A stretch of 64,000 nucleotides of DNA from Dehalococcoidia bacterium UBA6926 (GTDB lineage: Bacteria; Chloroflexota; Dehalococcoidia; UBA6926): positions 63,688-127,687 of the forward strand of contig DKAM01000030.1 in NCBI GenBank assembly GCA_002450835.1, given 5' to 3'. A model generated the notes under the pieces. That model searched no databases, was not told the DNA's origin, and worked only from the letters and a program-made list of their open reading frames with translations. A program made the position numbers and the translations under genes. Shown piece by piece: positions 1,913-39,608 of this stretch (position 1 is the first letter of the stretch; every line of letters begins with the position of its first letter).

Positions 1913-2155
1913 ATGGAAGCGGAAACTACAACAATTGTGCCTATTGTGTATACCTTAAAAACATGTCCTTCTTGCATTGTTCTTAAAGAGGACTGGGAAA
2001 AAGAAGCGATTGAATTCGAAGAACGTCAGGTTGACGAAAACCAAAAATGGTTGGATGAAGCTCGGGAATTTGGTGACATAGTCCCAATCGTTGTATATCC
2101 GGACGGAAAAGTAACTATGGGCTATAAAGATATGATAGGTTGTAATATAGGTTAG
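1913..2155 (+). CDS. glutaredoxin-like small thioredoxin-fold protein (CPSC motif)
   Basis: 80 aa. KTCPSCIVLKEDWEK motif and a C-terminal VYPDGK...GY stretch resemble the NrdH/glutaredoxin family. Confidence 0.6.
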   Translation: MEAETTTIVPIVYTLKTCPSCIVLKEDWEKEAIEFEERQVDENQKWLDEAREFGDIVPIVVYPDGKVTMGYKDMIGCNIG

Positions 2156-2178: not shown

Positions 2179-2772
2179 ATGTCTAATAATACAAGCGTCG
2201 TAAGTTTAGAGAGATACAATTCTGGCTTAACTTATGAAGACTATGTGCTCAATATCAAAGTAAACAAAGATAGATTCGAAACGTACTATGAAAGCGCAGA
2301 ACTAAAAACGGAAGATAAAGATTTTTTTTCGTCTATTTCATCAACTCCTAATGGAATAAAAAAATTAATGATCATAGGAGAAGATTGGTGCCCAGACGTT
2401 TTCAGAGGGATGCCAGTATTCGCGAGAATTGCTGAAGCAGCTGATATCGAAATGCGAATATTCCCAAGAGATGAAAACCTCGACATTATGGATGAGTTCT
2501 TGAAAGATGGCGAATTTAGATCAATACCAGTAGCTGTATTTTATGATGACCAACTAAATGAAATCGCTAGATGGATTGAAAGACCAGTTATCGGATATGA
2601 ACAATCCAAACAAATTACGGATCGAACAGAAAAAGACATGGGAACCGCTAGTGACCAAGAAAAAAGGAAAAATATCCGAGATCAGATATATGCTCTATAT
2701 CCTTCTTGGCAACAAGAGACGGTGGTAGAAGTAAAACAACTGTTGAGCGTTCAGCTAGTAGATAAGGGCTAA
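2179..2772 (+). CDS. thioredoxin-like family protein (monothiol WCPDV motif)
   Basis: IIGEDWCPDVFRG matches the WCPDC-type thioredoxin-like family, but the second Cys is replaced by Val (codon gtt). Confidence 0.5.
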   Translation: MSNNTSVVSLERYNSGLTYEDYVLNIKVNKDRFETYYESAELKTEDKDFFSSISSTPNGIKKLMIIGEDWCPDVFRGMPVFARIAEAADIEMRIFPRDENLDIMDEFLKDGEFRSIPVAVFYDDQLNEIARWIERPVIGYEQSKQITDRTEKDMGTASDQEKRKNIRDQIYALYPSWQQETVVEVKQLLSVQLVDKG

Positions 2773-3662
2773 CTTCTTTTAAATAAATAATCAAATTGGT
2801 GGGCAATATATAGCAATTTATCACCGTCTACTTGTTCGTGTCTTTCTTTTATCCATAATTCAAGCTGTTGCTTATCGACTTTTGGTTTTCCTATAAGAGC
2901 TTCGTGAACTGTATTAATAATGTAATGTAAGAAATACTGCGTATCAGCATCATATCCGAGGGCAGGAGGATAGATAACCCAATCCGAACTACCAACCGAT
3001 AAGATCTCACCTTCAGAATCTACAAATCGGGATAAAAGGTTACGACCAGTCTTACTATCAAACATTGTTTGGTGATACTGCTCTTCAATAAATGCGTCAA
3101 ATTCATGATCTATAGTTGGGCCAAAATATGTTACACCGTCAAAATTTATTGACGAATATAAAAGGCCACCTGGTTTCAATGTTGCAAAAATACTAGGTAA
3201 GGCTTCTTCAACGTTTAGCAGATCAAGGACAGCCTGCGCAATAACAAGATCAGTGCTCTCGGATTTTTCTTGGGACTTTATAATCTCAACTGCATCTTGG
3301 TCATACAGTTTTAACGTCATAGAGAACGAACCTTTCTTTAAGAACACTTCGTAAGGTGCTAGGTTCTCGATTACGTAATCGTGTTTTTTTGCGAAAGCGA
3401 TGATCCTCTTCTTTGCTTCTTCTATATTTTTTCGAGAAATATCAAAAGCTTCATATTCTCCACTGGGCATCAGTTCCGCTTCCAAGAGGCGCTCAATCAT
3501 AGTTCCTACACCAGCGCCAATTTCGATAGTTTTGAATGGTCGCTCAGTGTTTCTAACATTTAGTTCTGCAGATAAAGCTCCTAAAACTCTTTGATTTAAT
3601 GATAAATCATCAATGTATTTCTTCGATGCAAGATACCTTTGATAACTATACTCAAGATCCAT
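2769..3662 (-). CDS. class I SAM-dependent methyltransferase
   Basis: Motif I IEIGAGVGT and later AFD...LKPGGLL motifs. Last gene of the minus-strand operon. Confidence 0.75.
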   Translation of the reverse strand: MDLEYSYQRYLASKKYIDDLSLNQRVLGALSAELNVRNTERPFKTIEIGAGVGTMIERLLEAELMPSGEYEAFDISRKNIEEAKKRIIAFAKKHDYVIENLAPYEVFLKKGSFSMTLKLYDQDAVEIIKSQEKSESTDLVIAQAVLDLLNVEEALPSIFATLKPGGLLYSSINFDGVTYFGPTIDHEFDAFIEEQYHQTMFDSKTGRNLLSRFVDSEGEILSVGSSDWVIYPPALGYDADTQYFLHYIINTVHEALIGKPKVDKQQLELWIKERHEQVDGDKLLYIAHQFDYLFKRS

Positions 3663-3667
3663 ATTGC

Positions 3668-4747
3668 TTAATACTCCTCTAAAACTTTTACTAGAAAATC
3701 TCTTGAGTTAATCGCAGAATCTTTCCATGTTGGATACCCTGAATAAGTATTCAAAGCCTTCCAACTCATATCGATCAAAGTCTGCGGATGTTTGATCAAT
3801 GATTGCAGGTAGGAAGCTAATGTTTTACTGTCACCTTTATCAATCAAATAGCCATTTTCTCCATGCTGTATAATCTCTTTCGCTGCGCCTTCTGTCGTTG
3901 CTATAGCCGGCAGTCCGAAGCCCATACCTTCTAAATAGACTATTCCGAATCCTTCCCAAGATGAAGGCACAACTAGTAAATCTGAATTATTTAACCGCTC
4001 AGATAATTCTATGTCTGACAAAGCTCCGGAAAATGTTACACGGTCACGCAAACTCAAATTATTCACTAAGGTTATTACATTATCAAAGTATCTAGAATCG
4101 ACATCAGTCTTACCAACAACATCTAAATGCCAAAGATCAGATTTAATCAAACCAAGTGCTTCAACTAGAACCATTAATTGCTTCCTAGGTATTACATTAC
4201 CAATAAAAATAATGTTCAACCGGTCACTAGAAGCTACCCTTGAACTAACAAAATCTCTGGTGATTTTAGTATTAAATCGATCCCCACCGGGGCTCGAAAT
4301 CACGTATGGCTTATCCAAATTAGTAAGAGTTTCGACACTATCCTTGGTGGTATTGCTATTAAAAATATAGCCGTCCACTGACTCCAAATATGCTTTCTCA
4401 ATTTTCTGATATGCCCAATTTGCAACCCTACCGCGCTCTTCATTAGATCTTAGGTGGTGCACTATCGAAATAATAGGGTAATTCCCACGGATTTTTTTGT
4501 TTGCGTGAAAAAGAGATGGATGGTTCAATTCATCTTGTAACATCAAATCTATATCAGGGTCATTCATCATCTTTATTAGCTCTTTAGACCAATTATCTGC
4601 AACATTAGAATGATAAGATTTATTTGGGATTGATATGACTTTAACATCATCCCCTTGGGATTTTAGATAATCGACTAACATCCGATCGTATAAGTAACCA
4701 CCTGAAAGAGTATTTAAACTTCCGTAGATGACCAAAGCAATTTTCAT
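3668..4747 (-). CDS. GT4-family (GT-B fold) glycosyltransferase
   Basis: C-terminal VPSSWEGFGIVYLEGMGFGLPAIAT motif. Its start ATG overlaps the upstream gene's stop (ATGA), so I moved the start to the internal MKIALV. Confidence 0.8.
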   Translation of the reverse strand: MKIALVIYGSLNTLSGGYLYDRMLVDYLKSQGDDVKVISIPNKSYHSNVADNWSKELIKMMNDPDIDLMLQDELNHPSLFHANKKIRGNYPIISIVHHLRSNEERGRVANWAYQKIEKAYLESVDGYIFNSNTTKDSVETLTNLDKPYVISSPGGDRFNTKITRDFVSSRVASSDRLNIIFIGNVIPRKQLMVLVEALGLIKSDLWHLDVVGKTDVDSRYFDNVITLVNNLSLRDRVTFSGALSDIELSERLNNSDLLVVPSSWEGFGIVYLEGMGFGLPAIATTEGAAKEIIQHGENGYLIDKGDSKTLASYLQSLIKHPQTLIDMSWKALNTYSGYPTWKDSAINSRDFLVKVLEEY

Positions 4748-5124
4748 TTTAGAATTCTTGTGTGCGATGCCCATGCTAATGAGTCTTCCCATAATCTAAC
4801 TTCCACAGAATAAACATCCGCAACTGACAAGCTCTTACAAAACATGTCACCAATAATTCTACAAAAGTTCTCCAAGCTAGGATTCAAATTTTCAAACTCA
4901 GGGAAATCATTTAGAGTATTGTCTTTGTAAGTACTAACAATATCATTTATTACGTTTTCAACTTCAACGATATCCACGAGATAACCATGTTGATCCAGTT
5001 CCTCGTTTTCTATGGTGATCTCTAGTCGATACTGGTGTGAATTCAAGTCGTTTTCAGATCCCCAATCTCCTCCAATTAAATAATGCTGAGCAATAAATTC
5101 CCTCAAAACTGCTACTTTATACAT
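4744..5124 (-). CDS. 6-pyruvoyl-tetrahydropterin synthase (PTPS/QueD) family protein
   Basis: MYKVAVLREFIAQHYLIGGDWGSENDLNSHQYRLEI... has PTPS-like N-terminal motifs. I chose the second ATG (MYKV) because a GGAGG RBS precedes it; the first ATG lies inside that RBS. Confidence 0.7.
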   Translation of the reverse strand: MYKVAVLREFIAQHYLIGGDWGSENDLNSHQYRLEITIENEELDQHGYLVDIVEVENVINDIVSTYKDNTLNDFPEFENLNPSLENFCRIIGDMFCKSLSVADVYSVEVRLWEDSLAWASHTRILK

Positions 5125-5156
5125 ACTTACCTCCAAAATAATAAACCTCTATACGC

Positions 5157-6176
5157 CTAAGTATCATATTTGAGAATTACCTGTAAAATATCATCAGAAT
5201 TTTGGTGAAGATTATCATATGCTACTTTAGCTTCCTCGATGGGGTATTCGTGAGTAACCAATCTTGAAGGCTTAATAGCTCTTAACATATCCCACGCAAC
5301 ACTAAATCTACGTTCTTTAGTCCATCTACCAGAAAATTTCGGGTCAATAGTGCTTACCTGACTAGTAATTAGGTTAATTCTGCTTCTGTGAAAAGAATCC
5401 CCTAGGGATAGCTCACTCTTCTTATTGCCATACCAGGAACCAATAATAATCCTACCGTTATATCCAGTTATATCTATAGCATTGTTTAACGATCCTGGAT
5501 TTCCAGAGACTTCATAGACAAGATCAAAACCTTTATATTCCTTATCGAATATCGAATTCATCATAGGTTCTTCAAAAGAACCAAAGGTATGAGAAGCTCC
5601 GAATTCTAATGAAACTCGTCTTCTTTTAATAATCGTATCGAATGTCACAAGATTATCTAACGGAAAAGAATTAAGCAAACTTGTAGTCAACAGACCAACT
5701 ATGCCCTGACCGATAACTGCAACATTCTCCCCAATAACGGGTGAACCATCCATAATAAGGTTCAGGGCTGTTTCCATATTTGGCAAAAATATAGCGTCTT
5801 CGTAACCAATTCCATCTGGAATTTCTATAAGATCTTTGACACTCGTAAAAAAGTGACTCTCGTGTGGATTAAAGGAAAAAACACGGCGACCAATCCATTT
5901 ATTGTCCACATTGGCACCAACATCTATTACTTCTCCCACTGTGGCATAACCATACTGTGTGGGGTAACTAAAAGTTTCACTAAATTCAGGAATAAGTGGA
6001 TCTAGAAGCATCCCTTCAGGTATTTCACCTCGATAGACTAAAAGTTCAGTACCAGCGCTAATACCACTACAAAAACTCTCCACAAGAACTGTATCATCTG
6101 GAACTTTTACATCGAGATTCCGCTCTTTAACTAAAATTTCAAAAGGATTATTAAACACCAAGAATCTATTTTTCAA
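5157..6176 (-). CDS. MDR-superfamily (alcohol dehydrogenase-like) oxidoreductase; TTG start overlapping the upstream stop
   Basis: GroES-like N-terminal domain with catalytic Cys (ESFCSGISAGTE). Rossmann motif VAVIGQGIVG. The canonical GHE zinc motif is replaced by GYA. Confidence 0.7.
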   Translation of the reverse strand: MKNRFLVFNNPFEILVKERNLDVKVPDDTVLVESFCSGISAGTELLVYRGEIPEGMLLDPLIPEFSETFSYPTQYGYATVGEVIDVGANVDNKWIGRRVFSFNPHESHFFTSVKDLIEIPDGIGYEDAIFLPNMETALNLIMDGSPVIGENVAVIGQGIVGLLTTSLLNSFPLDNLVTFDTIIKRRRVSLEFGASHTFGSFEEPMMNSIFDKEYKGFDLVYEVSGNPGSLNNAIDITGYNGRIIIGSWYGNKKSELSLGDSFHRSRINLITSQVSTIDPKFSGRWTKERRFSVAWDMLRAIKPSRLVTHEYPIEEAKVAYDNLHQNSDDILQVILKYDT

Positions 6177-7518
6177 TATTCTCCCAATCAGGGGTTCCCC
6201 AAACTATGAAATCATCTCCGAGTTTTTCATAACCTATATTTCTAAGTCTTGGACGGAAATTACCTAATTTGTTAATGTCGCCAATAGCGTTTAATCCGCC
6301 TAGCAAGCTAGGGGTAAGAGTAATCACAACATGGTCAACTAGTTCACTAAGTATAAATTGGGTTATAACTTGTCGTCCCCCTTCTACCATAATAGACCGA
6401 AATCCCTGTAAATATACGCTCTTGAGAATCTTTTTCAGATCAAGTTTCCCTTCTGCATCCAGCATAACGGAGGAAACACGTAACCCTGCGGCCTCTAATT
6501 CCCTTCTCTTATCATCTGGGGCATCTGGGCCACAAAAAATCCAGGCAGGTGGCCCAGAATTACGCAATAAATTCGCAGTTATTGGAAAACGTAATTGAGT
6601 GTCAAGAATAATTGGCTGAGGATTTATGCCTTCCACTTCTCGCACGGTCAAATCAGGATCATCAGATATAATCGTACCGATGCCCACCAATATCCCATCA
6701 TGTTCCGAGCGAAGAGCATGTGTCATAGCATTTGCTTGTTGCCCACTGATAGAAAAAGGGACCCCCTCATCCAGAGCAATCGAGCCATCAATACTCTGAG
6801 CATAAGTTAAAGTTACAAATGGTCGTTTAAGCTCTGCTTCTTTAGATATATTTTTGGGCGCAATCGGTATTGGAACCCCTCTATAAGCTTTTGTATCAAG
6901 ATCCAACATGTGGCCCATACGTTTCGATTTTGTACTTAAATAGTCGATATTATCTTGATTAGGTATAGTTTCTATGGGTTCACGTTTGGATACATCTATA
7001 CCAAATTTCTCCAAAGCACTAATCTTCAAAGAGTTGTTAGTCAAAAGTTTTACAGACTGGACACCCAAGTCTTCGAGCATAAGACAAGCTACCCTATAAT
7101 CACGCTCATCCGCTTGATGTCCCAATTCAATATTTGCATCAACGGTGTCGTATCCTTCGTCCTGAAGATTATACGCTCTAAGTTTATCCCTTAACCCAAT
7201 GCCTCTGCCTTCCTGTCTCAAATAGATCACTACGCCAGATCCCTCTTCCGATATTTTTTCCATCGCCTGGCGTAATTGATTGCCGCAATCACACCTCCGG
7301 GACCCAAATACGTCACCAGTAAAACACTCAGAATGGATTCGAACTAAAACATCGCTTTTACCTTCTAAAGGCCCTGTTACTAAAGCGACATGTTCCTTAT
7401 CATCCTTATTGTTAGAGTAGTAAATCAACGAGAAATCCCCTTCTTTCGTCGGAATTCTCGCAGAAACATCGCGTGTTACCCTAAGATCAAACATAGCCGT
7501 ACTATTATATAGATCCAA
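6166..7518 (-). CDS. bifunctional GTP cyclohydrolase II (RibA-like) fused to a RibD-type pyrimidine reductase domain (no deaminase domain)
   Basis: N-terminal half closely resembles RibA: zinc Cys (HSECFTGD...RRCDCG), RAYNLQDEGYDTVDAN, LLTNN. C-terminal half matches the RibD_C reductase (TLTYAQSIDGSIA...MVEGGRQV). Alternative start ATG at 7494. Confidence 0.8.
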   Translation of the reverse strand: MDLYNSTAMFDLRVTRDVSARIPTKEGDFSLIYYSNNKDDKEHVALVTGPLEGKSDVLVRIHSECFTGDVFGSRRCDCGNQLRQAMEKISEEGSGVVIYLRQEGRGIGLRDKLRAYNLQDEGYDTVDANIELGHQADERDYRVACLMLEDLGVQSVKLLTNNSLKISALEKFGIDVSKREPIETIPNQDNIDYLSTKSKRMGHMLDLDTKAYRGVPIPIAPKNISKEAELKRPFVTLTYAQSIDGSIALDEGVPFSISGQQANAMTHALRSEHDGILVGIGTIISDDPDLTVREVEGINPQPIILDTQLRFPITANLLRNSGPPAWIFCGPDAPDDKRRELEAAGLRVSSVMLDAEGKLDLKKILKSVYLQGFRSIMVEGGRQVITQFILSELVDHVVITLTPSLLGGLNAIGDINKLGNFRPRLRNIGYEKLGDDFIVWGTPDWENIEK

Positions 7519-7532
7519 ATTAAAAGGTCAAT

Positions 7533-12166: not shown

Positions 12167-13414
12167 TTATTTAACAAACAAGAATTTTGGCTGTAAAAGT
12201 AAAACCAAAAGTACAGATATACTTAAAACAGTTCCCATTGATATCAAAGCGAAGGCAGGTCCAAAAAATTCTGCAGCGTACCCTGCAACTAAACTACCCA
12301 AAGGAACAAATCCCCGGTCTAATAAATATAAGCTTATTACGCGGCCATGGAACCGGGCTTCCGACAAGGTCAGAAGAAGTCCGTTTGTAACGGTCCTCTG
12401 TGTTGAATCAAAAAAACCAACTAATATCAGAACTCCCATGGCCAGAATCAGAAACGGAGCCAAGCCCAAAGCGACCAACGCAATACCACTTAGGCACATA
12501 GTGACAGATATCATTGCTCCCTTGCCTTGAAAGTCACCCATAAACGCTAAGATCAATGGGCCAATTAACGACCCAGCCCCCATCATACTAACCAATAAAC
12601 CAAAACCTTCCGGCCCTATGTCAAATCTCTCATCCGCAAGCGCGGGTAAAACAACCATAAATGGCTGTAAAAGCAAAAGCGACAAAAATCCCAAAACCAG
12701 AAGGATCACTATACTTCTATGATTTCTTACGTATGCGAGGCCCTCTAATGTGCTCTTAATAGCCGATTTTTCAGGTTTACCAAGTCTCTTATCTTTAGGA
12801 ACCTTTATATTTAGCCAAGCGATAATCACAATAATTTCAAACAAAACAATTACTGCAAATACCAAGGCAGAACCAGCAAAAGCAAACATCAATCCAGTAA
12901 ATATCGGAGATATCACGCGGGTTCCATTAAACAAAAATTGTTGAATCGCAACAGCTGAACCAATATCTGCTTCTTTTACTAGTGAGGGTATTAAAGCTTG
13001 CCTAGGAGGTTGGTTAAAAGCTATCATTACCCCCCTCAAAAAAAATAGTGAATACACGTGCCAAATCTCTAAAATGTCCATTAGTAATAACGCTAAAATC
13101 GAGAGGTAAACAAATAAGATACCAATCTGTGTAGTTACTAATATGATTTTCCGGTTTACCCGATCCGCTAAAACGCCAGCAGGTACAGCTAAAAATAAAA
13201 TCGGTATTGTCCGCCAAAAATTAACTAAGCCAACTGCTGCAACAGACCCCGTCATCTCCCAAATAAGCCAATTCCTTGCTACTATCTCCATCCACAAGGT
13301 AAAAGCATGAGATGTAACGCCTATCAATAGGTACTTAAACGAACCTTGACTCAATAGCTCGGACAAATTCCGAAAGGCACCAACCTTAAAAAAACGCGTT
13401 AGTTTAGTGAACAT
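12167..13414 (-). CDS. MFS transporter
   Basis: About 12 predicted TM helices with MFS motif patterns. Lies in tandem with a second MFS gene and a MarR regulator. Confidence 0.75.
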   Translation of the reverse strand: MFTKLTRFFKVGAFRNLSELLSQGSFKYLLIGVTSHAFTLWMEIVARNWLIWEMTGSVAAVGLVNFWRTIPILFLAVPAGVLADRVNRKIILVTTQIGILFVYLSILALLLMDILEIWHVYSLFFLRGVMIAFNQPPRQALIPSLVKEADIGSAVAIQQFLFNGTRVISPIFTGLMFAFAGSALVFAVIVLFEIIVIIAWLNIKVPKDKRLGKPEKSAIKSTLEGLAYVRNHRSIVILLVLGFLSLLLLQPFMVVLPALADERFDIGPEGFGLLVSMMGAGSLIGPLILAFMGDFQGKGAMISVTMCLSGIALVALGLAPFLILAMGVLILVGFFDSTQRTVTNGLLLTLSEARFHGRVISLYLLDRGFVPLGSLVAGYAAEFFGPAFALISMGTVLSISVLLVLLLQPKFLFVK

Positions 13415-13488
13415 TATTAAAGGTTAGCCTAAAACCGTTGATACCCATTGAATAAATTTGCCCTCTTGGAAATCCAAATTTTTTGTCA

Positions 13489-14919
13489 CTAATCCAAATT
13501 GTAAATCCGTTTTGAAAAAAACATGTAGTAGCCTGTTACTAAAATCAATAAAGCGGCGGTGGTTCCCACAGCAATTTGAACTCCAATAACATCAGCGATC
13601 AAAGCAACTATAAATATCCCTATGCTGGTCATTCCCCAATTAAGCATATAAATGCTCATAACCCGACCTCTATATTCGGGTGCACTATAAGCTTGAGCTA
13701 AACTATTACTCAAGGCCATCCTACCCGCTTGACCCAATCCCAGAGGAATAAAAATAAGTAAGGCAACAAAAAAGGAATCTGTAATACTAAAGATTACTAG
13801 ACTCACTGCCATAAGTAGTATGTTAATCAGCAACCATTTACCCCTATTTCGATCAGGCATTGACGCAATAAAATAGGAGCCAATCAATGCACCAATACCA
13901 GAGACACTCAGTAGTAACCCTTGCCTTGCGGCAGAGTTAGATAGGGTTTCAAAAAATCCTCCTACTAAAGGCACAGACCCTATAGCAGAAAGCTTGAACC
14001 CGATTAACCCATCCGATATATACGATGGTAAAAATATTCCCTCAGCTGAAAGTGTTTTACCCATTTCAACCATTAAAATAGTATCTGTAAACGCGGGCAA
14101 CAAAAACATATATGGCATCGAAAAAACAAACGACATCAATGTAAAGATTAAAAGAGAGTAAATTGCTTTATTCGAGTAAATGTAGCGTACCCCCTCCCCT
14201 ATATCAGACAATACACCAGTGCCTTTTATACTAACACCGCCGGAAACTGGCAATTTTATTAGGAAAAACGCCCCATACATATATAAAACTGACATGACAA
14301 AATACACACCTTGTATACTCCACAACGCTATTAGAAACCCTGCTAACGCGGGTCCTATAAGGCGGAATAAGTTCATTGCAGCACCATTTAAAGTTACAGC
14401 ATTAGTTATAAGTCTAGGGCCAACAAGTTCAGGAATAATTGCCTGCCTTGCCGGCATCATTAAACTCATCACAACACCTTGTAAGAAAGAAGCAGCCATT
14501 AGGTGTACCCATGTTACTGACCCGAAAACGATAGAAAAACCAACCATCATTGTCACTAAAGCAGATGCTATATGTCCCGCTATTAGAACTTTTTTCTTAG
14601 AAATATTATCAGCTAAAACTCCTCCGAATAGTGAAAGAAATAACATTGGGACAGCATTTGCTAGCGCTAAAACTCCAAGCAAAGTTATGTTGTGAGTCAA
14701 TTCATAGACAAACCAGGACCGAGCAACCATCTGCATATTCATCGCAGCCATTTGACCTAATATTACGATGTAATAGGTCCGAAAAGACGGAACAGCAAGC
14801 GAAGCAAATGTCGATACGCGAAACCCATCATCAGAAGAATTAGAAATCGAATCACCGTCAGGACTCCCAACAGGTTCACTCTCTTCTATTCCAGATTTCT
14901 CAGTATCTAATCGGCTCAA
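13489..14919 (-). CDS. MFS transporter (with hydrophilic N-terminal extension)
   Basis: Multi-TM MFS-like architecture. Sits immediately downstream of the MarR gene. Confidence 0.75.
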   Translation of the reverse strand: MSRLDTEKSGIEESEPVGSPDGDSISNSSDDGFRVSTFASLAVPSFRTYYIVILGQMAAMNMQMVARSWFVYELTHNITLLGVLALANAVPMLFLSLFGGVLADNISKKKVLIAGHIASALVTMMVGFSIVFGSVTWVHLMAASFLQGVVMSLMMPARQAIIPELVGPRLITNAVTLNGAAMNLFRLIGPALAGFLIALWSIQGVYFVMSVLYMYGAFFLIKLPVSGGVSIKGTGVLSDIGEGVRYIYSNKAIYSLLIFTLMSFVFSMPYMFLLPAFTDTILMVEMGKTLSAEGIFLPSYISDGLIGFKLSAIGSVPLVGGFFETLSNSAARQGLLLSVSGIGALIGSYFIASMPDRNRGKWLLINILLMAVSLVIFSITDSFFVALLIFIPLGLGQAGRMALSNSLAQAYSAPEYRGRVMSIYMLNWGMTSIGIFIVALIADVIGVQIAVGTTAALLILVTGYYMFFSKRIYNLD

Positions 14920-38606: not shown

Positions 38607-39608
38607 ATGAATCCCCTAAAGAAACCTCAATTTCTTCTTAGGGTTATTTTTGGATTTGTGGTTGGTGTCATCTTCCTATTCTTTACAACCAGAGATATAA
38701 ATCTGAATATATTTATCAATAGCATTGCTGATCTATCGTTCAATTTCATTCTACCATCAATCGGGTTCGTGGTACTTAGCTTGTTTACTAGTGCCTATCG
38801 ATGGAAAACACTTTTCACTGAACACCCACCTTCCATATTGAGGCTTTTTGTTGTGGAAAATACAGGAGTAGGTATAAATAGTCTAGCTCCCATCCGTATA
38901 TTGGCAGAGCCAATACAATTTGCATATCTAACGGTAAGAGATGGGTACAAGCAATCGCAGGTATTAGCATCACTTATATTAGTTAGAATGGTTGACCTTG
39001 CAATAACATTAATCACAATCGTTTTCGGCTTACTGCTATCCCCTCCTCCACATGAACTCAAAGATTTTATCTGGACGACTTCATTAATTTTAGCTTTGTT
39101 CTTAATGGTCATCACTTATATTTCATTAACGATTAACCGATGGGAGTATTTCAAGAAATATCCTTTAATAATTGAATACGGTACTGTGTGGAGAGATTTA
39201 TTTAGACAAGCGTCTCGGCTATTTAAGGTACTGCTTATAACAAATATCAAATGGCTTTTATTAGGAGTAAGTGGTTGGTTAATCGCCAAAGATCTAGGGT
39301 TGGCAATTCATTATTGGCAGCTTTACGTCATTATTTTGATAATCACAACTATAGCTTCTATCGTTCCGGGCCTGCCGTCTGGCCTCGGCCCTTTTGAATT
39401 TGCGTCAATCGTTTTTCTAGGATTACATGGAATCGAGCGCGAGTCTGCTTTGGTATTTGCCTTAGCGGCTCACTTAATCTATTTCCTGCCACCCATCATC
39501 ATTGCAGGCATTAACATTGCCATATCAGGTAGCCCATTTCCTATTTGGGATCGATTAACAAAGTTTAGCTTTTTAGACAGAGTCTTTAATACCACCAAAC
39601 GTAACTGA
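38607..39608 (+). CDS. flippase-like domain protein (UPF0104/LPG-synthase TM-region family)
   Basis: Eight predicted TM helices with UPF0104-like topology and a conserved YRW segment. Tentative. Confidence 0.55.
   Translation: MNPLKKPQFLLRVIFGFVVGVIFLFFTTRDINLNIFINSIADLSFNFILPSIGFVVLSLFTSAYRWKTLFTEHPPSILRLFVVENTGVGINSLAPIRILAEPIQFAYLTVRDGYKQSQVLASLILVRMVDLAITLITIVFGLLLSPPPHELKDFIWTTSLILALFLMVITYISLTINRWEYFKKYPLIIEYGTVWRDLFRQASRLFKVLLITNIKWLLLGVSGWLIAKDLGLAIHYWQLYVIILIITTIASIVPGLPSGLGPFEFASIVFLGLHGIERESALVFALAAHLIYFLPPIIIAGINIAISGSPFPIWDRLTKFSFLDRVFNTTKRN

What the first reader, a model, noticed from the sequence alone, without database searches (positions are those of the whole stretch)
2769..7518. 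Five-gene operon: GTP cyclohydrolase II-reductase fusion, MDR dehydrogenase, PTPS/QueD-like, GT4 glycosyltransferase, SAM methyltransferase
All five genes are co-directional on the minus strand, with 4-11 nt overlaps or gaps of 22 nt or less (6166/6176 and 4744/4747 overlaps), which suggests translational coupling. The first enzyme joins a bona fide GCHII (zinc Cys triad and the catalytic Tyr are present) to a RibD reductase domain without the deaminase domain. Its predicted product is 2,5-diamino-6-ribitylamino-4(3H)-pyrimidinone 5'-phosphate. That intermediate belongs to the reduce-first (archaeal/fungal-type) riboflavin route and is also an entry point to toxoflavin-like azapteridines. The partners are odd: a PTPS/QueD-family enzyme normally needs the GCH I product, the MDR dehydrogenase has lost the GHE zinc motif, and a glycosyltransferase and a methyltransferase follow. 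Together they look like a tailoring pathway for a glycosylated or methylated pterin-, flavin- or ribityl-pyrimidine-derived metabolite that I cannot match to a described cluster.
Basis: partly seen in the sequence, partly recalled or inferred. Interest (0 to 1): 0.65.

Follow-up and report, generated by a model that had tools for sequence, protein, structure and literature searches.

The report
Orphan GTP-derived glycoside pathway operon
This is a real five-gene operon that diverts GTP, through an intermediate bacteria do not normally make, into an unidentified sugar-carrying and methylated compound; the same gene set recurs from Streptomyces to salt-loving archaea, often next to membrane-lipid genes, and nobody has yet identified its product.

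Summary
Five co-directional minus-strand genes (7494-2769) have overlapping or tightly spaced junctions and a near-consensus promoter just after recN.

The first enzyme is a bona fide GTP cyclohydrolase II fused to a reductase. The reductase carries the fungal RIB7-type Thr, not the bacterial Lys, at the substrate-specificity position. It therefore most likely makes 2,5-diamino-6-ribitylamino-pyrimidinone 5'-phosphate.

The block cyclohydrolase(-reductase), zinc-less MDR, PTPS-like, GT4 and (often) methyltransferase keeps its order in about 35 loci from at least six bacterial phyla and in archaea. No riboflavin genes lie nearby.

It is not unmatched. It is the Chloroflexota version of the Streptomyces coelicolor SCO6650/SCO6655-type ("PTPS-IV") neighbourhood, which is known from comparative genomics, one crystal structure and one enzyme study. 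No product has been published.

New here: the cassette is specifically linked to a CDP-alcohol phosphatidyltransferase, an MprF-like flippase domain protein and a small membrane protein. These occur at 16 of 39 cassette loci and 0 of 44 ordinary ribA loci, and a reciprocal search confirmed the link. The Streptomyces and haloarchaeal versions share them. The product may therefore be a lipid head group. This window copy lacks those membrane genes nearby.

Product unknown. Interest is moderate to high.

The parts
7504..7531 (-). Promoter-like site TTGACC-16 nt-TATAAT. It begins 2 nt after the recN stop, and its -10 hexamer ends 9 nt before ATG 7494, which would give a leaderless or near-leaderless transcript.
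   Evidence: It matches 11 of 12 consensus positions. This is a consensus match only; the total count of such sites in the region is not above the shuffled expectation.
6166..7494 (-). Fusion protein of 442 aa: GTP cyclohydrolase II domain (about nt 6979-7470) joined to a RIB7/ArfC-type pyrimidine reductase domain (about nt 6205-6822). There is no deaminase domain.
   Evidence: Pfam PF00925 at 8e-68 and PF01872 at 1e-41. TIGR00505 ribA scores 256.6, above its cutoff of 205.85. The Cys triad and the Tyr of LRAY are invariant. The specificity residue is Thr, as in yeast RIB7. The start is corrected by reference to homologue P0001.
5157..6176 (-). MDR-superfamily dehydrogenase of 339 aa. It lacks the catalytic zinc ligands, has the GxGxxG motif and an acidic residue at the end of beta-2 (NAD type), and sits in the polyol/secondary-alcohol dehydrogenase lineage. 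BchC is the nearest named family.
   Evidence: (BchC model matches full length but at 76 bits against a 291 cutoff). TTG start; 11-nt overlap with the fusion gene's stop.
4744..5124 (-). T-fold PTPS/QueD-superfamily protein of 126 aa; its closest solved relative is SCO6650. The pyrimidine/pterin-anchoring Glu113 and His14/His30 are kept. Glu24 replaces the catalytic Cys. Asn28 replaces the middle zinc-binding His in this lineage.
   Evidence: GGAGG Shine-Dalgarno sequence 5 nt before the ATG.
3668..4747 (-). GT4 (GT-B fold, retaining-type) glycosyltransferase of 359 aa. Its ATG overlaps the PTPS stop (ATGA).
   Evidence: The best solved relatives of the family profile are sucrose-phosphate synthase, MshA, PimA/PimB' and BshA.
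2769..3662 (-). Class I SAM-dependent methyltransferase of 297 aa, starting 5 nt after the GT4 stop. It is the last gene; its 3' end overlaps the convergent thioredoxin-like gene by 4 nt.
   Evidence: Orthologues follow GT4 in 19 of the cassette loci and in the CAPT-linked loci.

Best explanation
The five genes are one operon. It encodes the soluble enzymes of a widely conserved but uncharacterised pathway that branches from GTP.

Step 1 (inferred from intact catalytic residues): the GCH II domain converts GTP to 2,5-diamino-6-ribosylamino-4(3H)-pyrimidinone 5'-phosphate.

Step 2 (inferred from the fungal-type specificity residue and the absence of a deaminase domain): the fused reductase reduces this directly, probably with NADPH, to the 6-ribitylamino compound. 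The normal bacterial riboflavin route never makes this intermediate, so it marks a committed branch.

Steps 3-4 (reaction class inferred, chemistry not shown): a zinc-less, NAD-type, polyol-dehydrogenase-like MDR oxidises or reduces a secondary alcohol or ketone on the ribityl-derived chain. A SCO6650-like T-fold protein, which keeps the Glu that anchors a 2-amino-4-oxo-pyrimidine ring, then remodels or cyclises the chain into a pterin-like or modified ribitylaminopyrimidine compound.

Step 5: an MshA/PimA-like GT4 adds a sugar to a hydroxyl of this polyol(-phosphate).

Step 6: the SAM methyltransferase methylates the product.

In many other genomes the same cassette is joined to a dedicated CDP-alcohol phosphatidyltransferase, an MprF-type flippase-like protein and a small membrane protein. 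The likely fate of the product is therefore to become, or be attached to, a phospholipid head group. In this marine Chloroflexota window those membrane genes are not adjacent.
For: Operon:
- Junction overlaps, Shine-Dalgarno motifs and a promoter-like site after recN.

Conservation as a unit, with unrelated flanks:
- Found in Chloroflexota, Acidobacteriota, Marinimicrobia, Methylococcales, Spirochaetes, Salinivenus, a Euryarchaeota MAG, haloarchaea and Streptomyces.

Fusions that tie the enzymes together:
- GCHII-reductase fusion here, the two as separate adjacent genes in 9 loci, and a GCHII-MDR fusion in L029.

GCHII competence:
- Cys triad and Tyr present; score above the TIGR00505 cutoff.

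Reductase specificity:
- Thr/Ser/Cys, never Lys, at the RibG-K151 position. The motif is identical to yeast RIB7, where a T35K mutation shifts preference to the deaminated substrate.

Consistent pattern of which variants carry a reductase:
- The archaeal variants (L029, and L118-L120 with ArfA) carry no reductase, and archaea make the ribityl-diamino intermediate in their housekeeping route.

Not a riboflavin operon:
- No ribB/ribE/ribH/deaminase within 10 kb of any cassette, and no FMN riboswitch in the window.

T-fold protein:
- The family profile hits SCO6650 at 1.7e-15; the next best hit is 2.6e-7. The anchoring Glu is invariant.

MDR:
- The zinc ligands are replaced family-wide. Its nearest relatives are polyol and secondary-alcohol dehydrogenases and BchC.

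GT4:
- Nearest to enzymes that act on sugar- or polyol-phosphates or on phosphatidylinositol.

Lipid link:
- CAPT, LPG_synthase_TM or DUF7475 lie in the flanks of 16/39 cassette loci and 0/44 ordinary ribA loci.
- A reciprocal search starting from the CAPT recovers the cassette on nearly every contig long enough to show it.
- DUF7475 is embedded inside the cassette in L044 and L035/L036.
- The Streptomyces and haloarchaeal versions also carry the CAPT, and Streptomyces a flippase-like gene.
Against: - No enzyme of this window, and no product of any member of the cassette, has been identified. Steps 3-6 rest on family resemblance only.
- Reducing C1' and then oxidising the chain again looks wasteful if a pterin is the goal.
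- Some bacterial variants (L028, L030, L044, Streptomyces L121) have no reductase nearby, so the ribityl intermediate may not be universal.
- The window's PTPS-like protein has Asn in place of one of the three zinc-binding His residues that most of the family conserve. Its metal site may therefore differ, or its activity may be altered.
- The window itself has no CAPT or DUF7475 in 64 kb. Its only LPG_synthase_TM gene is 30 kb away and only 24% identical. The lipid link is therefore extrapolated from relatives.
- A review states, as unpublished work, that PTPS-IV is involved in F420 synthesis.
Confidence: 0.6

Rival explanations
1. The cassette makes a soluble glycosylated pterin, comparable to cyanobacterial biopterin glucoside or Chlorobium tepidopterin, by a route that does not use GTP cyclohydrolase I. 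Under this reading, GCHII and the reductase are followed by MDR oxidation at C2', which recreates the Amadori ketone. This cyclises to dihydroneopterin phosphate. The T-fold protein then does PTPS-like side-chain chemistry, GT4 glycosylates, and the MT methylates. No lipid is involved, at least in this organism.
For: - The architecture parallels the biopterin-glucoside pathway: cyclohydrolase, then a PTPS-type T-fold protein, then a reductase, then a GT4.
- The T-fold protein keeps the pterin-anchoring Glu, and most family members keep the zinc His triad.
- Tetrahydrobiopterin glucosyltransferases are among the GT4 structural relatives.
- The window has no adjacent membrane genes.
Against: - BGluT (7.5e-18) ranks well below sucrose-P synthase, MshA and PimA (1e-39 to 1e-25) for the GT4 family profile.
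- A reduce-then-reoxidise route to a compound that GCH I makes in one step is uneconomical.
- The tight and specific association with CAPT, flippase-like and DUF7475 genes in many lineages is left unexplained.
Confidence: 0.22
2. The operon, or at least the fusion and the PTPS-like protein, supplies the pyrimidine precursor for riboflavin and/or the deazaflavin F420 by an archaeal/fungal-type reduce-first route. The T-fold protein would fill a missing step such as the deamination.
For: - A review reports, as unpublished data, that PTPS-IV is involved in F420 synthesis.
- In haloarchaea the MDR and PTPS-like genes sit directly downstream of arfA, whose deletion in Haloferax causes riboflavin auxotrophy.
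- The archaeal deaminase is still unassigned or only predicted.
- No other rib genes occur in the 64-kb window, so a housekeeping role cannot be excluded from the window alone.
Against: - A glycosyltransferase, methyltransferase, MDR, CAPT and flippase-like protein have no role in riboflavin or F420 synthesis, yet they are the most constant partners.
- No cassette is next to ribB, ribE/ribC, ribH or F420 genes.
- S. coelicolor has two other GCHII paralogues that make the normal product, and the cluster copy SCO6655 is the divergent one (Spoonamore & Bandarian 2008, from my own knowledge; the Met-for-Tyr change is seen).
- The F420 claim has not been published in the literature I could search.
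Confidence: 0.1
3. It is a specialised antibiotic or toxin cluster of the toxoflavin/azapteridine type, which also starts from GCHII.
For: It starts with a GCHII and contains a SAM methyltransferase, as toxoflavin clusters do (from my own knowledge of the tox operon).
Against: - There is no deaminase domain; toxoflavin ToxE is a full RibD.
- None of the five genes carries any other domain.
- The distribution is broad, syntenic and core-genome-like, next to recN/tsaE/tsaB in Dehalococcoidia.
- There are no PADLOC hits apart from a generic methyltransferase domain match.
Confidence: 0.03

Closest known systems
Streptomyces coelicolor SCO6650/SCO6655-type cluster (PTPS-IV neighbourhood). SCO6650 has a crystal structure (PDB 3d7j). 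SCO6655 is a GCHII paralogue reported to make the formylated FAPy product.
   Same: - Homologous MDR (33% identity, E 2e-34), T-fold protein (best PDB hit for the family profile, 1.7e-15), GT4 (E 7e-18) and GCHII (50% identity). The MDR, PTPS and GT4 genes are in the same order, followed by a methyltransferase-like gene.
- The literature already records PF00925 and PF01872 as the characteristic neighbours of PTPS-IV.
- The product is unknown in both.
   Different: - The Streptomyces GCHII has Met instead of the catalytic Tyr (LRAM) and is paired with a creatininase/ArfB-like deformylase. There is no reductase in the cluster, and the CAPT and flippase-like genes are inside it.
- The window has a Tyr-type GCHII fused to a RIB7-type reductase, no deformylase and no membrane genes nearby.
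- The T-fold proteins are only 21-24% identical, and the window protein has WGSEN where PTPS-IV has its FGPAQ signature.
Fungal/archaeal reduce-first riboflavin steps (yeast RIB7, M. jannaschii ArfC; GCH II/III, then reductase, then deaminase)
   Same: The GCHII product is reduced before any deamination. The reductase motif PFVTLTYAQS[IL]D and the Thr specificity residue are as in yeast RIB7.
   Different: No deaminase, lumazine synthase or riboflavin synthase partners are present. Instead there is an MDR, a T-fold protein, a GT4 and an MT. The fusion to GCHII is not the arrangement in fungi or archaea.
Pterin glycoside pathways (GCH I, PTPS, sepiapterin reductase and the UDP-glucose:tetrahydrobiopterin glucosyltransferase BGluT of cyanobacteria)
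   Same: The logic is the same: a GTP cyclohydrolase, a PTPS-superfamily T-fold enzyme, a side-chain oxidoreductase and a GT4 glycosyltransferase. BGluT structures are detectable relatives of the GT4.
   Different: - It uses GCH II (or III), not GCH I.
- The T-fold protein lacks the catalytic Cys.
- The oxidoreductase is a zinc-less MDR, not an SDR.
- The GT4 is closer to MshA, PimA and sucrose-P synthase than to BGluT.
- It is linked to lipid genes in relatives.
Phosphatidylinositol-phosphate synthase plus PimA (PI mannoside) and MshA (mycothiol) logic
   Same: In relatives a CDP-alcohol phosphatidyltransferase and a GT4 sit together, as pgsA1 and pimA do in mycobacteria. The GT4 family profile aligns over its full length with PimA and MshA, whose acceptors are phosphatidylinositol and inositol-1-phosphate.
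   Different: The alcohol here would be a GTP-derived ribityl or pterin polyol rather than inositol. This is an analogy only; no activity has been tested.

Membership tests
SCO6650/SCO6655-type (PTPS-IV) conserved cassette | T-fold protein whose closest characterised or solved relative is SCO6650 | tested here: met
   Single sequence: 3d7j is the best PDB hit. Family profile: 3d7j at 1.7e-15 over its full length; the next hit is at 2.6e-7.
SCO6650/SCO6655-type (PTPS-IV) conserved cassette | PTPS-IV sequence signature FGPAQ | tested here: not met
   The window has WGSEN and the family consensus is WGxEN at that position. The haloarchaeal form has PGPEG and Salinivenus has CGPEN, so the signature grades between lineages.
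SCO6650/SCO6655-type (PTPS-IV) conserved cassette | Neighbouring GTP cyclohydrolase II (PF00925), often with RibD_C (PF01872) | tested here: met
SCO6650/SCO6655-type (PTPS-IV) conserved cassette | Adjacent homologous MDR and GT4 genes in the order MDR-PTPS-GT4 | tested here: met
   tblastn of the window proteins against Streptomyces locus L121: MDR 2e-34, GT4 7e-18, same order. The order is also the same in about 35 other loci.
SCO6650/SCO6655-type (PTPS-IV) conserved cassette | CDP-alcohol phosphatidyltransferase and flippase-like membrane genes in or next to the cluster | tested here: not met
   The window has no CAPT or DUF7475 anywhere in 64 kb, and only a distant LPG_synthase_TM gene 30 kb away. 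These genes are present at 16/39 cassette loci elsewhere.
GTP cyclohydrolase II (RibA) | Zinc-binding Cys triad, the catalytic Tyr that gives the deformylated product, and a score above the curated cutoff | tested here: met
   C65/C76/C78 and Y116 (450-aa numbering) are invariant. TIGR00505 scores 256.6 against a cutoff of 205.85; NF001591 scores 263 against 148.
RIB7/ArfC-type 2,5-diamino-6-ribosylamino-pyrimidinone 5'-phosphate reductase | RibD_C fold with the GxG...GG NADPH motif; a small or uncharged residue (Thr or Asn) instead of Lys at the RibG-K151 position; no deaminase domain | tested here: met
   PF01872 at 1e-41. Thr238 lies in PFVTLTYAQS, aligned to Thr of RIB7, Asn of 2azn and Lys of RibG. 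VGIGT and EGG are conserved. The archaeal equivalog TIGR01508 scores only 118 against its cutoff of 186, so this is membership by features, not by the curated model.
RIB7/ArfC-type 2,5-diamino-6-ribosylamino-pyrimidinone 5'-phosphate reductase | Demonstrated preference for the non-deaminated substrate | not testable with these tools
   This needs an enzyme assay with both substrates.
Canonical PTPS / QueD (6-pyruvoyl- or 6-carboxy-tetrahydropterin synthase) | Three zinc-binding His residues, a catalytic Cys (CxxxHGH or CxxxxxHGH), and a score above the curated cutoff | tested here: not met
   The window has His14 and His30 but Asn28. Glu24 is at the Cys position. QueD model scores 45 against a cutoff of 89; 6PTHBS scores 27 against 125.
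Zinc-dependent MDR polyol/alcohol dehydrogenase | Catalytic zinc ligands (Cys, His of GHE, Glu) | tested here: not met
   Ser37, Tyr and Ala occupy these positions in the window protein. The Ser and the Tyr are invariant across 14 orthologues, including archaeal and Streptomyces ones.
BchC (3-hydroxyethyl bacteriochlorophyllide dehydrogenase) | Score above the TIGR01202 cutoff | tested here: not met
   76.5 bits against a cutoff of 291, although the alignment is full length. This is a resemblance only.
Bacterial riboflavin (rib) operon | RibD deaminase domain, RibE, RibH and RibB (DHBP synthase) nearby; FMN riboswitch | tested here: not met
   tblastn with Paenibacillus and Fusobacterium RibD/E/BA/H finds only the GCHII and reductase domains, both in the window and at every cassette locus. 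There is no FMN riboswitch in the window.
Pteridine glycosyltransferase (BGluT) | Closest GT4 relatives are tetrahydrobiopterin glucosyltransferases | tested here: inconclusive
   BGluT structures are hit at 7.5e-18 and 4e-17. This is behind sucrose-P synthase (9e-39), MshA (3e-33) and PimB'/PimA (2e-27 and 3e-25).

The most novel reading that the evidence does not exclude
The cassette is the soluble half of an undescribed pathway, shared by bacteria and archaea, that builds a GTP-derived head group (a ribityl-diaminopyrimidine or a pterin made from it). The head group would be glycosylated by a PimA/MshA-like GT4 and methylated. A dedicated CDP-alcohol phosphatidyltransferase would attach it to a membrane phospholipid (diacylglycerol- or archaeol-based), and an MprF-type flippase-like protein would move it across the membrane. 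This would be a new class of pterin- or pyrimidine-bearing lipid, possibly redox-active or UV-absorbing, at the cell surface.
Probability: 0.3. Interest if true: 0.85.

Novelty: new member of a known kind. Interest (0 to 1): 0.6.

Why it matters
This gene set is very common. The fusion protein alone has more than 6,000 database relatives. It occurs in abundant uncultured groups (marine Dehalococcoidia, Anaerolineae, Acidobacteriota, Marinimicrobia), in methanotrophs, and in genetically tractable model organisms (Streptomyces, haloarchaea).

Its product has stayed unknown since the SCO6650 structure and the SCO6655 enzymology of 2008. If the product is identified, it would assign a function to five to nine gene families that annotation pipelines currently mislabel as riboflavin or queuosine enzymes. 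It would also reveal a second metabolic fate for the first riboflavin intermediate.

The link to a phosphatidyltransferase and a flippase-like protein gives a concrete, testable hypothesis: look in lipid extracts of S. coelicolor or Haloferax knockouts.

Tried and rejected
Literature:
None found a paper that names a product for this cluster.
- Only two comparative-genomics papers mention PTPS-IV.
- The key papers (Phillips 2012; Spoonamore 2008) are not held in the library.

Riboflavin operon idea:
- Rejected for the locus. There are no other rib genes and no FMN riboswitch.

Defence-system idea:
- PADLOC gives nothing except a generic methyltransferase-domain match.
- The Pfam 'GT4-conflict' hit is partial and weaker than the general GT4 models.

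TIGR03112 and MSMEG_0565 family hits are far below their cutoffs and were not pursued.

Other neighbours at cassette loci (LspA-like, RluD-like, threonine aldolase-like, PNP-like, rhomboid-like, MerR-like by eye) are not recurrent and were set aside.

Technical points:
- A seven-sequence CAPT alignment was too divergent for the locus finder; a three-sequence alignment worked.
- No structure prediction was run. Sequence and profile matches already fix the folds, and a monomer model would not show the inter-subunit T-fold active site.

Full report
**1. The observation**

Pfam assigns them as follows:

| Gene | Pfam assignment |
|---|---|
| Fusion | GTP_cyclohydro2 (8e-68) + RibD_C (1e-41); no deaminase domain |
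| MDR | MDR dehydrogenase (ADH_zinc_N) |
| PTPS-like | PTPS (4e-23) |
| GT4 | Glycos_transf_1 |
| MT | Class I SAM methyltransferase |

Reading the junctions directly confirms tight packing:
- The fusion stop and the MDR TTG start overlap by 11 nt, with GGGAG upstream of the TTG.
- PTPS stop and GT4 start share ATGA.
- GT4 and MT are 5 nt apart.
- A GGAGG Shine-Dalgarno sequence precedes the PTPS ATG.

Three start codons need correction.
- The fusion most likely begins at ATG 7494. This gives 442 aa, the length of its 97%-identical database homologue. The TTG at 7518 lies inside a TTGACC-16-TATAAT match (11 of 12) that begins 2 nt after the recN stop. That site suggests an own, nearly leaderless promoter, but it is a consensus match only.
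- PTPS begins at ATG 5124. This gives 126 aa, the length of the 100%-identical protein P0121 found in Tara Oceans and NCBI marine Chloroflexota assemblies.
- GT4 begins at ATG 4747.

**2. Is it more than chance?**

Yes.
- The fusion architecture is widespread: more than 6,000 hits.
- On contigs from Acidobacteriota-like and Chloroflexota-like organisms, the fusion is followed by the same four genes in the same order, although the flanking genes differ.
- A scan of one genome per species, followed by tblastn with the five window proteins, found the same block in about 35 loci. The block is cyclohydrolase(-reductase), MDR, PTPS-like, GT4 and, in 19 of these loci, MT.
- These loci come from Anaerolineae, Caldilineae, Dehalococcoidia, Thermoflexales, Vicinamibacterales, Blastocatellia, Marinimicrobia, Methylococcales, Spirochaetes, Salinivenus and a Euryarchaeota MAG.
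- The constant core is MDR + PTPS-like + GT4.
- GCHII and the reductase are fused in many loci and are separate adjacent genes in nine loci.
- In L029 the GCHII is instead fused directly to the MDR.
- Only the close Dehalococcoidia relatives share the window's recN/tsaE/tsaB/MFS context. The cassette therefore moves as a unit.

**3. The first two steps**

The GCHII domain is competent.
- It exceeds the curated ribA cutoffs.
- It keeps the zinc Cys triad.
- It keeps the Tyr of LRAY, which separates true GCH II from formyl-product paralogues.

The reductase domain is of the reduce-first type.
- It has the NADPH motifs.
- At the position where E. coli RibD Lys152 and B. subtilis RibG Lys151 select the deaminated substrate, it has Thr.
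- Yeast RIB7 has Thr at this position, and its T35K mutant switches preference. Archaea have Asn (PMC3631187).
- The window motif PFVTLTYAQSID is the same as that of yeast RIB7 (alignments).
- Across the fusion family this residue is Thr, Ser or Cys, never Lys.
- No deaminase domain is detectable in the window or at any cassette locus.

The predicted product, 2,5-diamino-6-ribitylamino-4(3H)-pyrimidinone 5'-phosphate, is therefore well supported by inference.

One comparative pattern fits. The archaeal versions lack a cassette reductase: L029, and the haloarchaeal L118-L120, which use GTP cyclohydrolase III/ArfA. Archaea make this intermediate in their housekeeping route. Most bacterial versions, whose RibD deaminates first, carry their own reductase. 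The exceptions are L028, L030, L044 and Streptomyces, so the rule is not absolute.

**4. The other enzymes**

*MDR*
- All three catalytic zinc ligands are replaced. The Ser and Tyr substitutions are invariant in 14 orthologues, including archaeal and Streptomyces ones.
- It keeps GxGxxG and an acidic residue after beta-2, which is the NAD type.
- Its nearest solved relatives are butanediol, threonine, sorbitol, xylitol and galactitol-1-phosphate dehydrogenases.
- The nearest named family is BchC, far below its cutoff.
- It is therefore probably a secondary-alcohol/ketone oxidoreductase with an unusual catalytic set: invariant Ser37, Ser40, Thr43, Glu44, Tyr77, His105, Glu135 and His263.

*T-fold protein*
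- It is closest to SCO6650. The family profile scores 1.7e-15 against it, compared with 2.6e-7 for the next structure and about 1e-4 for QueD and PTPS.
- The family keeps the pyrimidine/pterin-anchoring Glu113. In most members it also keeps the three zinc-binding His residues.
- Glu24 replaces the catalytic Cys.
- The window lineage has Asn28 in place of the middle His.

*GT4*
- The family profile is nearest to sucrose-phosphate synthase, MshA, PimB'/PimA and BshA.
- Tetrahydrobiopterin glucosyltransferases rank lower.
- This hints at a polyol- or sugar-phosphate acceptor or a phosphatidyl-polyol acceptor. It is only a hint.

*Methyltransferase*
- It has no informative relatives.

**5. Comparison with what is known**

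The cluster is not unmatched.
- PTPS-IV is a recognised subfamily of COG0720. Its reported genome neighbourhood contains PF00925 and PF01872 (PMC5445326).
- A review states, without published data, that PTPS-IV is involved in F420 synthesis (PMC5041015).

I fetched the Streptomyces locus that encodes a 98%-identical copy of SCO6650. It reads as follows:

1. CDP-alcohol phosphatidyltransferase (on the opposite strand, divergent from the MDR)
2. MDR
3. SCO6650
4. GT4
5. a methyltransferase-like protein of 479 aa
6. a 405-aa membrane protein that looks flippase-like by eye
7. a creatininase/ArfB-like gene on the opposite strand
8. a GCHII with Met in place of the catalytic Tyr

From my own knowledge, this last gene is the SCO6655 type that Spoonamore and Bandarian showed makes the formylated product. 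They also reported that SCO6650 lacks PTPS activity. I could not retrieve either paper.

The window proteins are homologous to the Streptomyces GCHII, MDR, T-fold and GT4 proteins. The window cassette is therefore a new member, in a distinct variant form, of this known but functionally unsolved system. It does not carry the FGPAQ signature (it has WGSEN). I therefore call it PTPS-IV-like rather than a strict member.

**6. The membrane-lipid link (new in this analysis)**

Clustering the non-core neighbours of the cassette loci gave three recurrent families:
- a roughly 400-aa CDP-alcohol phosphatidyltransferase (PF01066; weakly nearest to PgsA and archaetidylinositol-phosphate synthase);
- an LPG_synthase_TM/flippase-like protein (PF03706);
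- a small membrane protein (DUF7475).

At least one of these lies within the fetched flanks of 16 of 39 cassette loci. None lies near any of the 44 ordinary ribA/ribBA loci brought in by the same scan.

The reciprocal test started from the phosphatidyltransferase in metagenome contigs. On nearly every contig long enough to show it, the result was CAPT, flippase-like, DUF7475, GCHII, reductase, MDR, PTPS-like, GT4 and MT.

Further support:
- DUF7475 lies inside the cassette in L044 and in L035/L036.
- The haloarchaeal variant has DUF7475-CAPT-GT4-MT divergent from ArfA-MDR-PTPS.
- The Streptomyces cluster also contains the CAPT and the flippase-like gene.
- I found no paper that mentions GTP cyclohydrolase II together with a CDP-alcohol phosphatidyltransferase.

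This makes a lipid-linked or phosphodiester-linked end product a serious possibility.

The caveat for this window is clear. It has no CAPT or DUF7475 in 64 kb, and its only LPG_synthase_TM gene is distant (38607-39608). Its Dehalococcoidia relatives L004 and L025 also lack them nearby.

**7. Most likely mechanism and rivals**

I commit to a dedicated GTP branch through the ribityl-diaminopyrimidine. The MDR and the T-fold protein then remodel it, and it is glycosylated and methylated. Its probable destination is a phospholipid head group in lineages that have the membrane module. Overall confidence is 0.6; the lipid part alone is about 0.3.

- Steps 1-2 are inferred from diagnostic residues.
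- Steps 3-6 are inferred only at the level of enzyme class.

The rivals are:
- a soluble pterin glycoside made without GCH I (0.22);
- a housekeeping riboflavin/F420 precursor role (0.10). This is kept alive by the arfA adjacency in haloarchaea, the riboflavin auxotrophy of the Haloferax arfA deletion (PMC8305020) and the unpublished F420 remark;
- a toxoflavin-like product (0.03).

Chance adjacency is excluded by the conservation data.

**8. Verdict**

The locus belongs to an orphan pathway that specialists know of but that remains unsolved. I rate it as a new member of a known kind.

Its interest (0.6) comes from three things: how common the cassette is, the fact that no published product could be found, and the new, directly testable connection to membrane-lipid enzymes.

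Noticed in passing
L007, L016, L018, L026-L028, L030, L031, L034-L036, L040, L041, L043-L045; L086-L120; L121: A dedicated CDP-alcohol phosphatidyltransferase, an LPG_synthase_TM flippase-like protein and a small DUF7475 membrane protein are specifically linked to the cassette. They occur at 16/39 cassette loci and 0/44 ordinary ribA loci, and a reciprocal search confirmed the link.
   Followed up: yes
L118:9369-15409 (also L119, L120): Haloarchaeal variant. DUF7475-CAPT-GT4-MT lies on one strand. ArfA (GTP cyclohydrolase III)-MDR-PTPS-like lies on the other. There is no GCHII and no reductase. A HAD-type phosphatase-like gene sits next to arfA.
   Followed up: partly
L029:9983-11722: A single 579-aa ORF fuses a Tyr-type GCHII directly to the zinc-less MDR, with no reductase domain. 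The contig is labelled as a Euryarchaeota MAG.
   Followed up: partly
window 5041-5043 (Asn28 codon of the PTPS-like gene): The window lineage (and P0139) has Asn where nearly all other family members have the middle zinc-binding His of the HSH motif. It is unclear whether metal binding is lost or altered in marine Dehalococcoidia.
   Followed up: partly
window 7494-7531: The 11/12 sigma-70-like promoter match ends 9 nt before the ATG. This implies a leaderless or near-leaderless mRNA for the first gene, with no Shine-Dalgarno sequence, whereas the downstream genes do have Shine-Dalgarno motifs.
   Followed up: partly
window 1913-2155 (+) and 2179-2772 (+): A glutaredoxin-like protein resembling the Uxx-star family (43.6 bits, below the 66 cutoff) with a CPSC motif, followed by a Thioredoxin_9 protein. 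They converge on the operon, and the second overlaps the methyltransferase stop by 4 nt. They are not conserved next to the cassette elsewhere.
   Followed up: no
window 38607-39608 (+): An LPG_synthase_TM/flippase-like ORF (Pfam 4e-36) lies 30 kb from the cassette. It is only 24% identical over a part of the cassette-linked flippase-like proteins. Its neighbours are a xylose-isomerase-like TIM barrel protein, an M42 peptidase and an AI-2E transporter.
   Followed up: partly
L003:10443-10787: In a Blastocatellia contig a small DMT_6 (PF04342) membrane protein is inserted between the MDR and the PTPS-like gene. A YdjC-family gene, extra methyltransferases and a GT flank the cassette. This may be another membrane or tailoring variant.
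   Followed up: no
L106:12654-14506 and L107: On two metagenome contigs (L106, L107) the membrane genes are followed by the reductase; in L106 the MDR follows it as well. No GCHII is detectable nearby, so the cyclohydrolase may be supplied from elsewhere in these genomes.
   Followed up: no
window 12167-14919 (-): Two tandem paralogous multi-pass membrane ORFs. Their positional counterparts in relative L004 are MFS_3-type transporters. tsaE and tsaB lie next to them. This synteny is shared with L004/L005 but not with other phyla.
   Followed up: no
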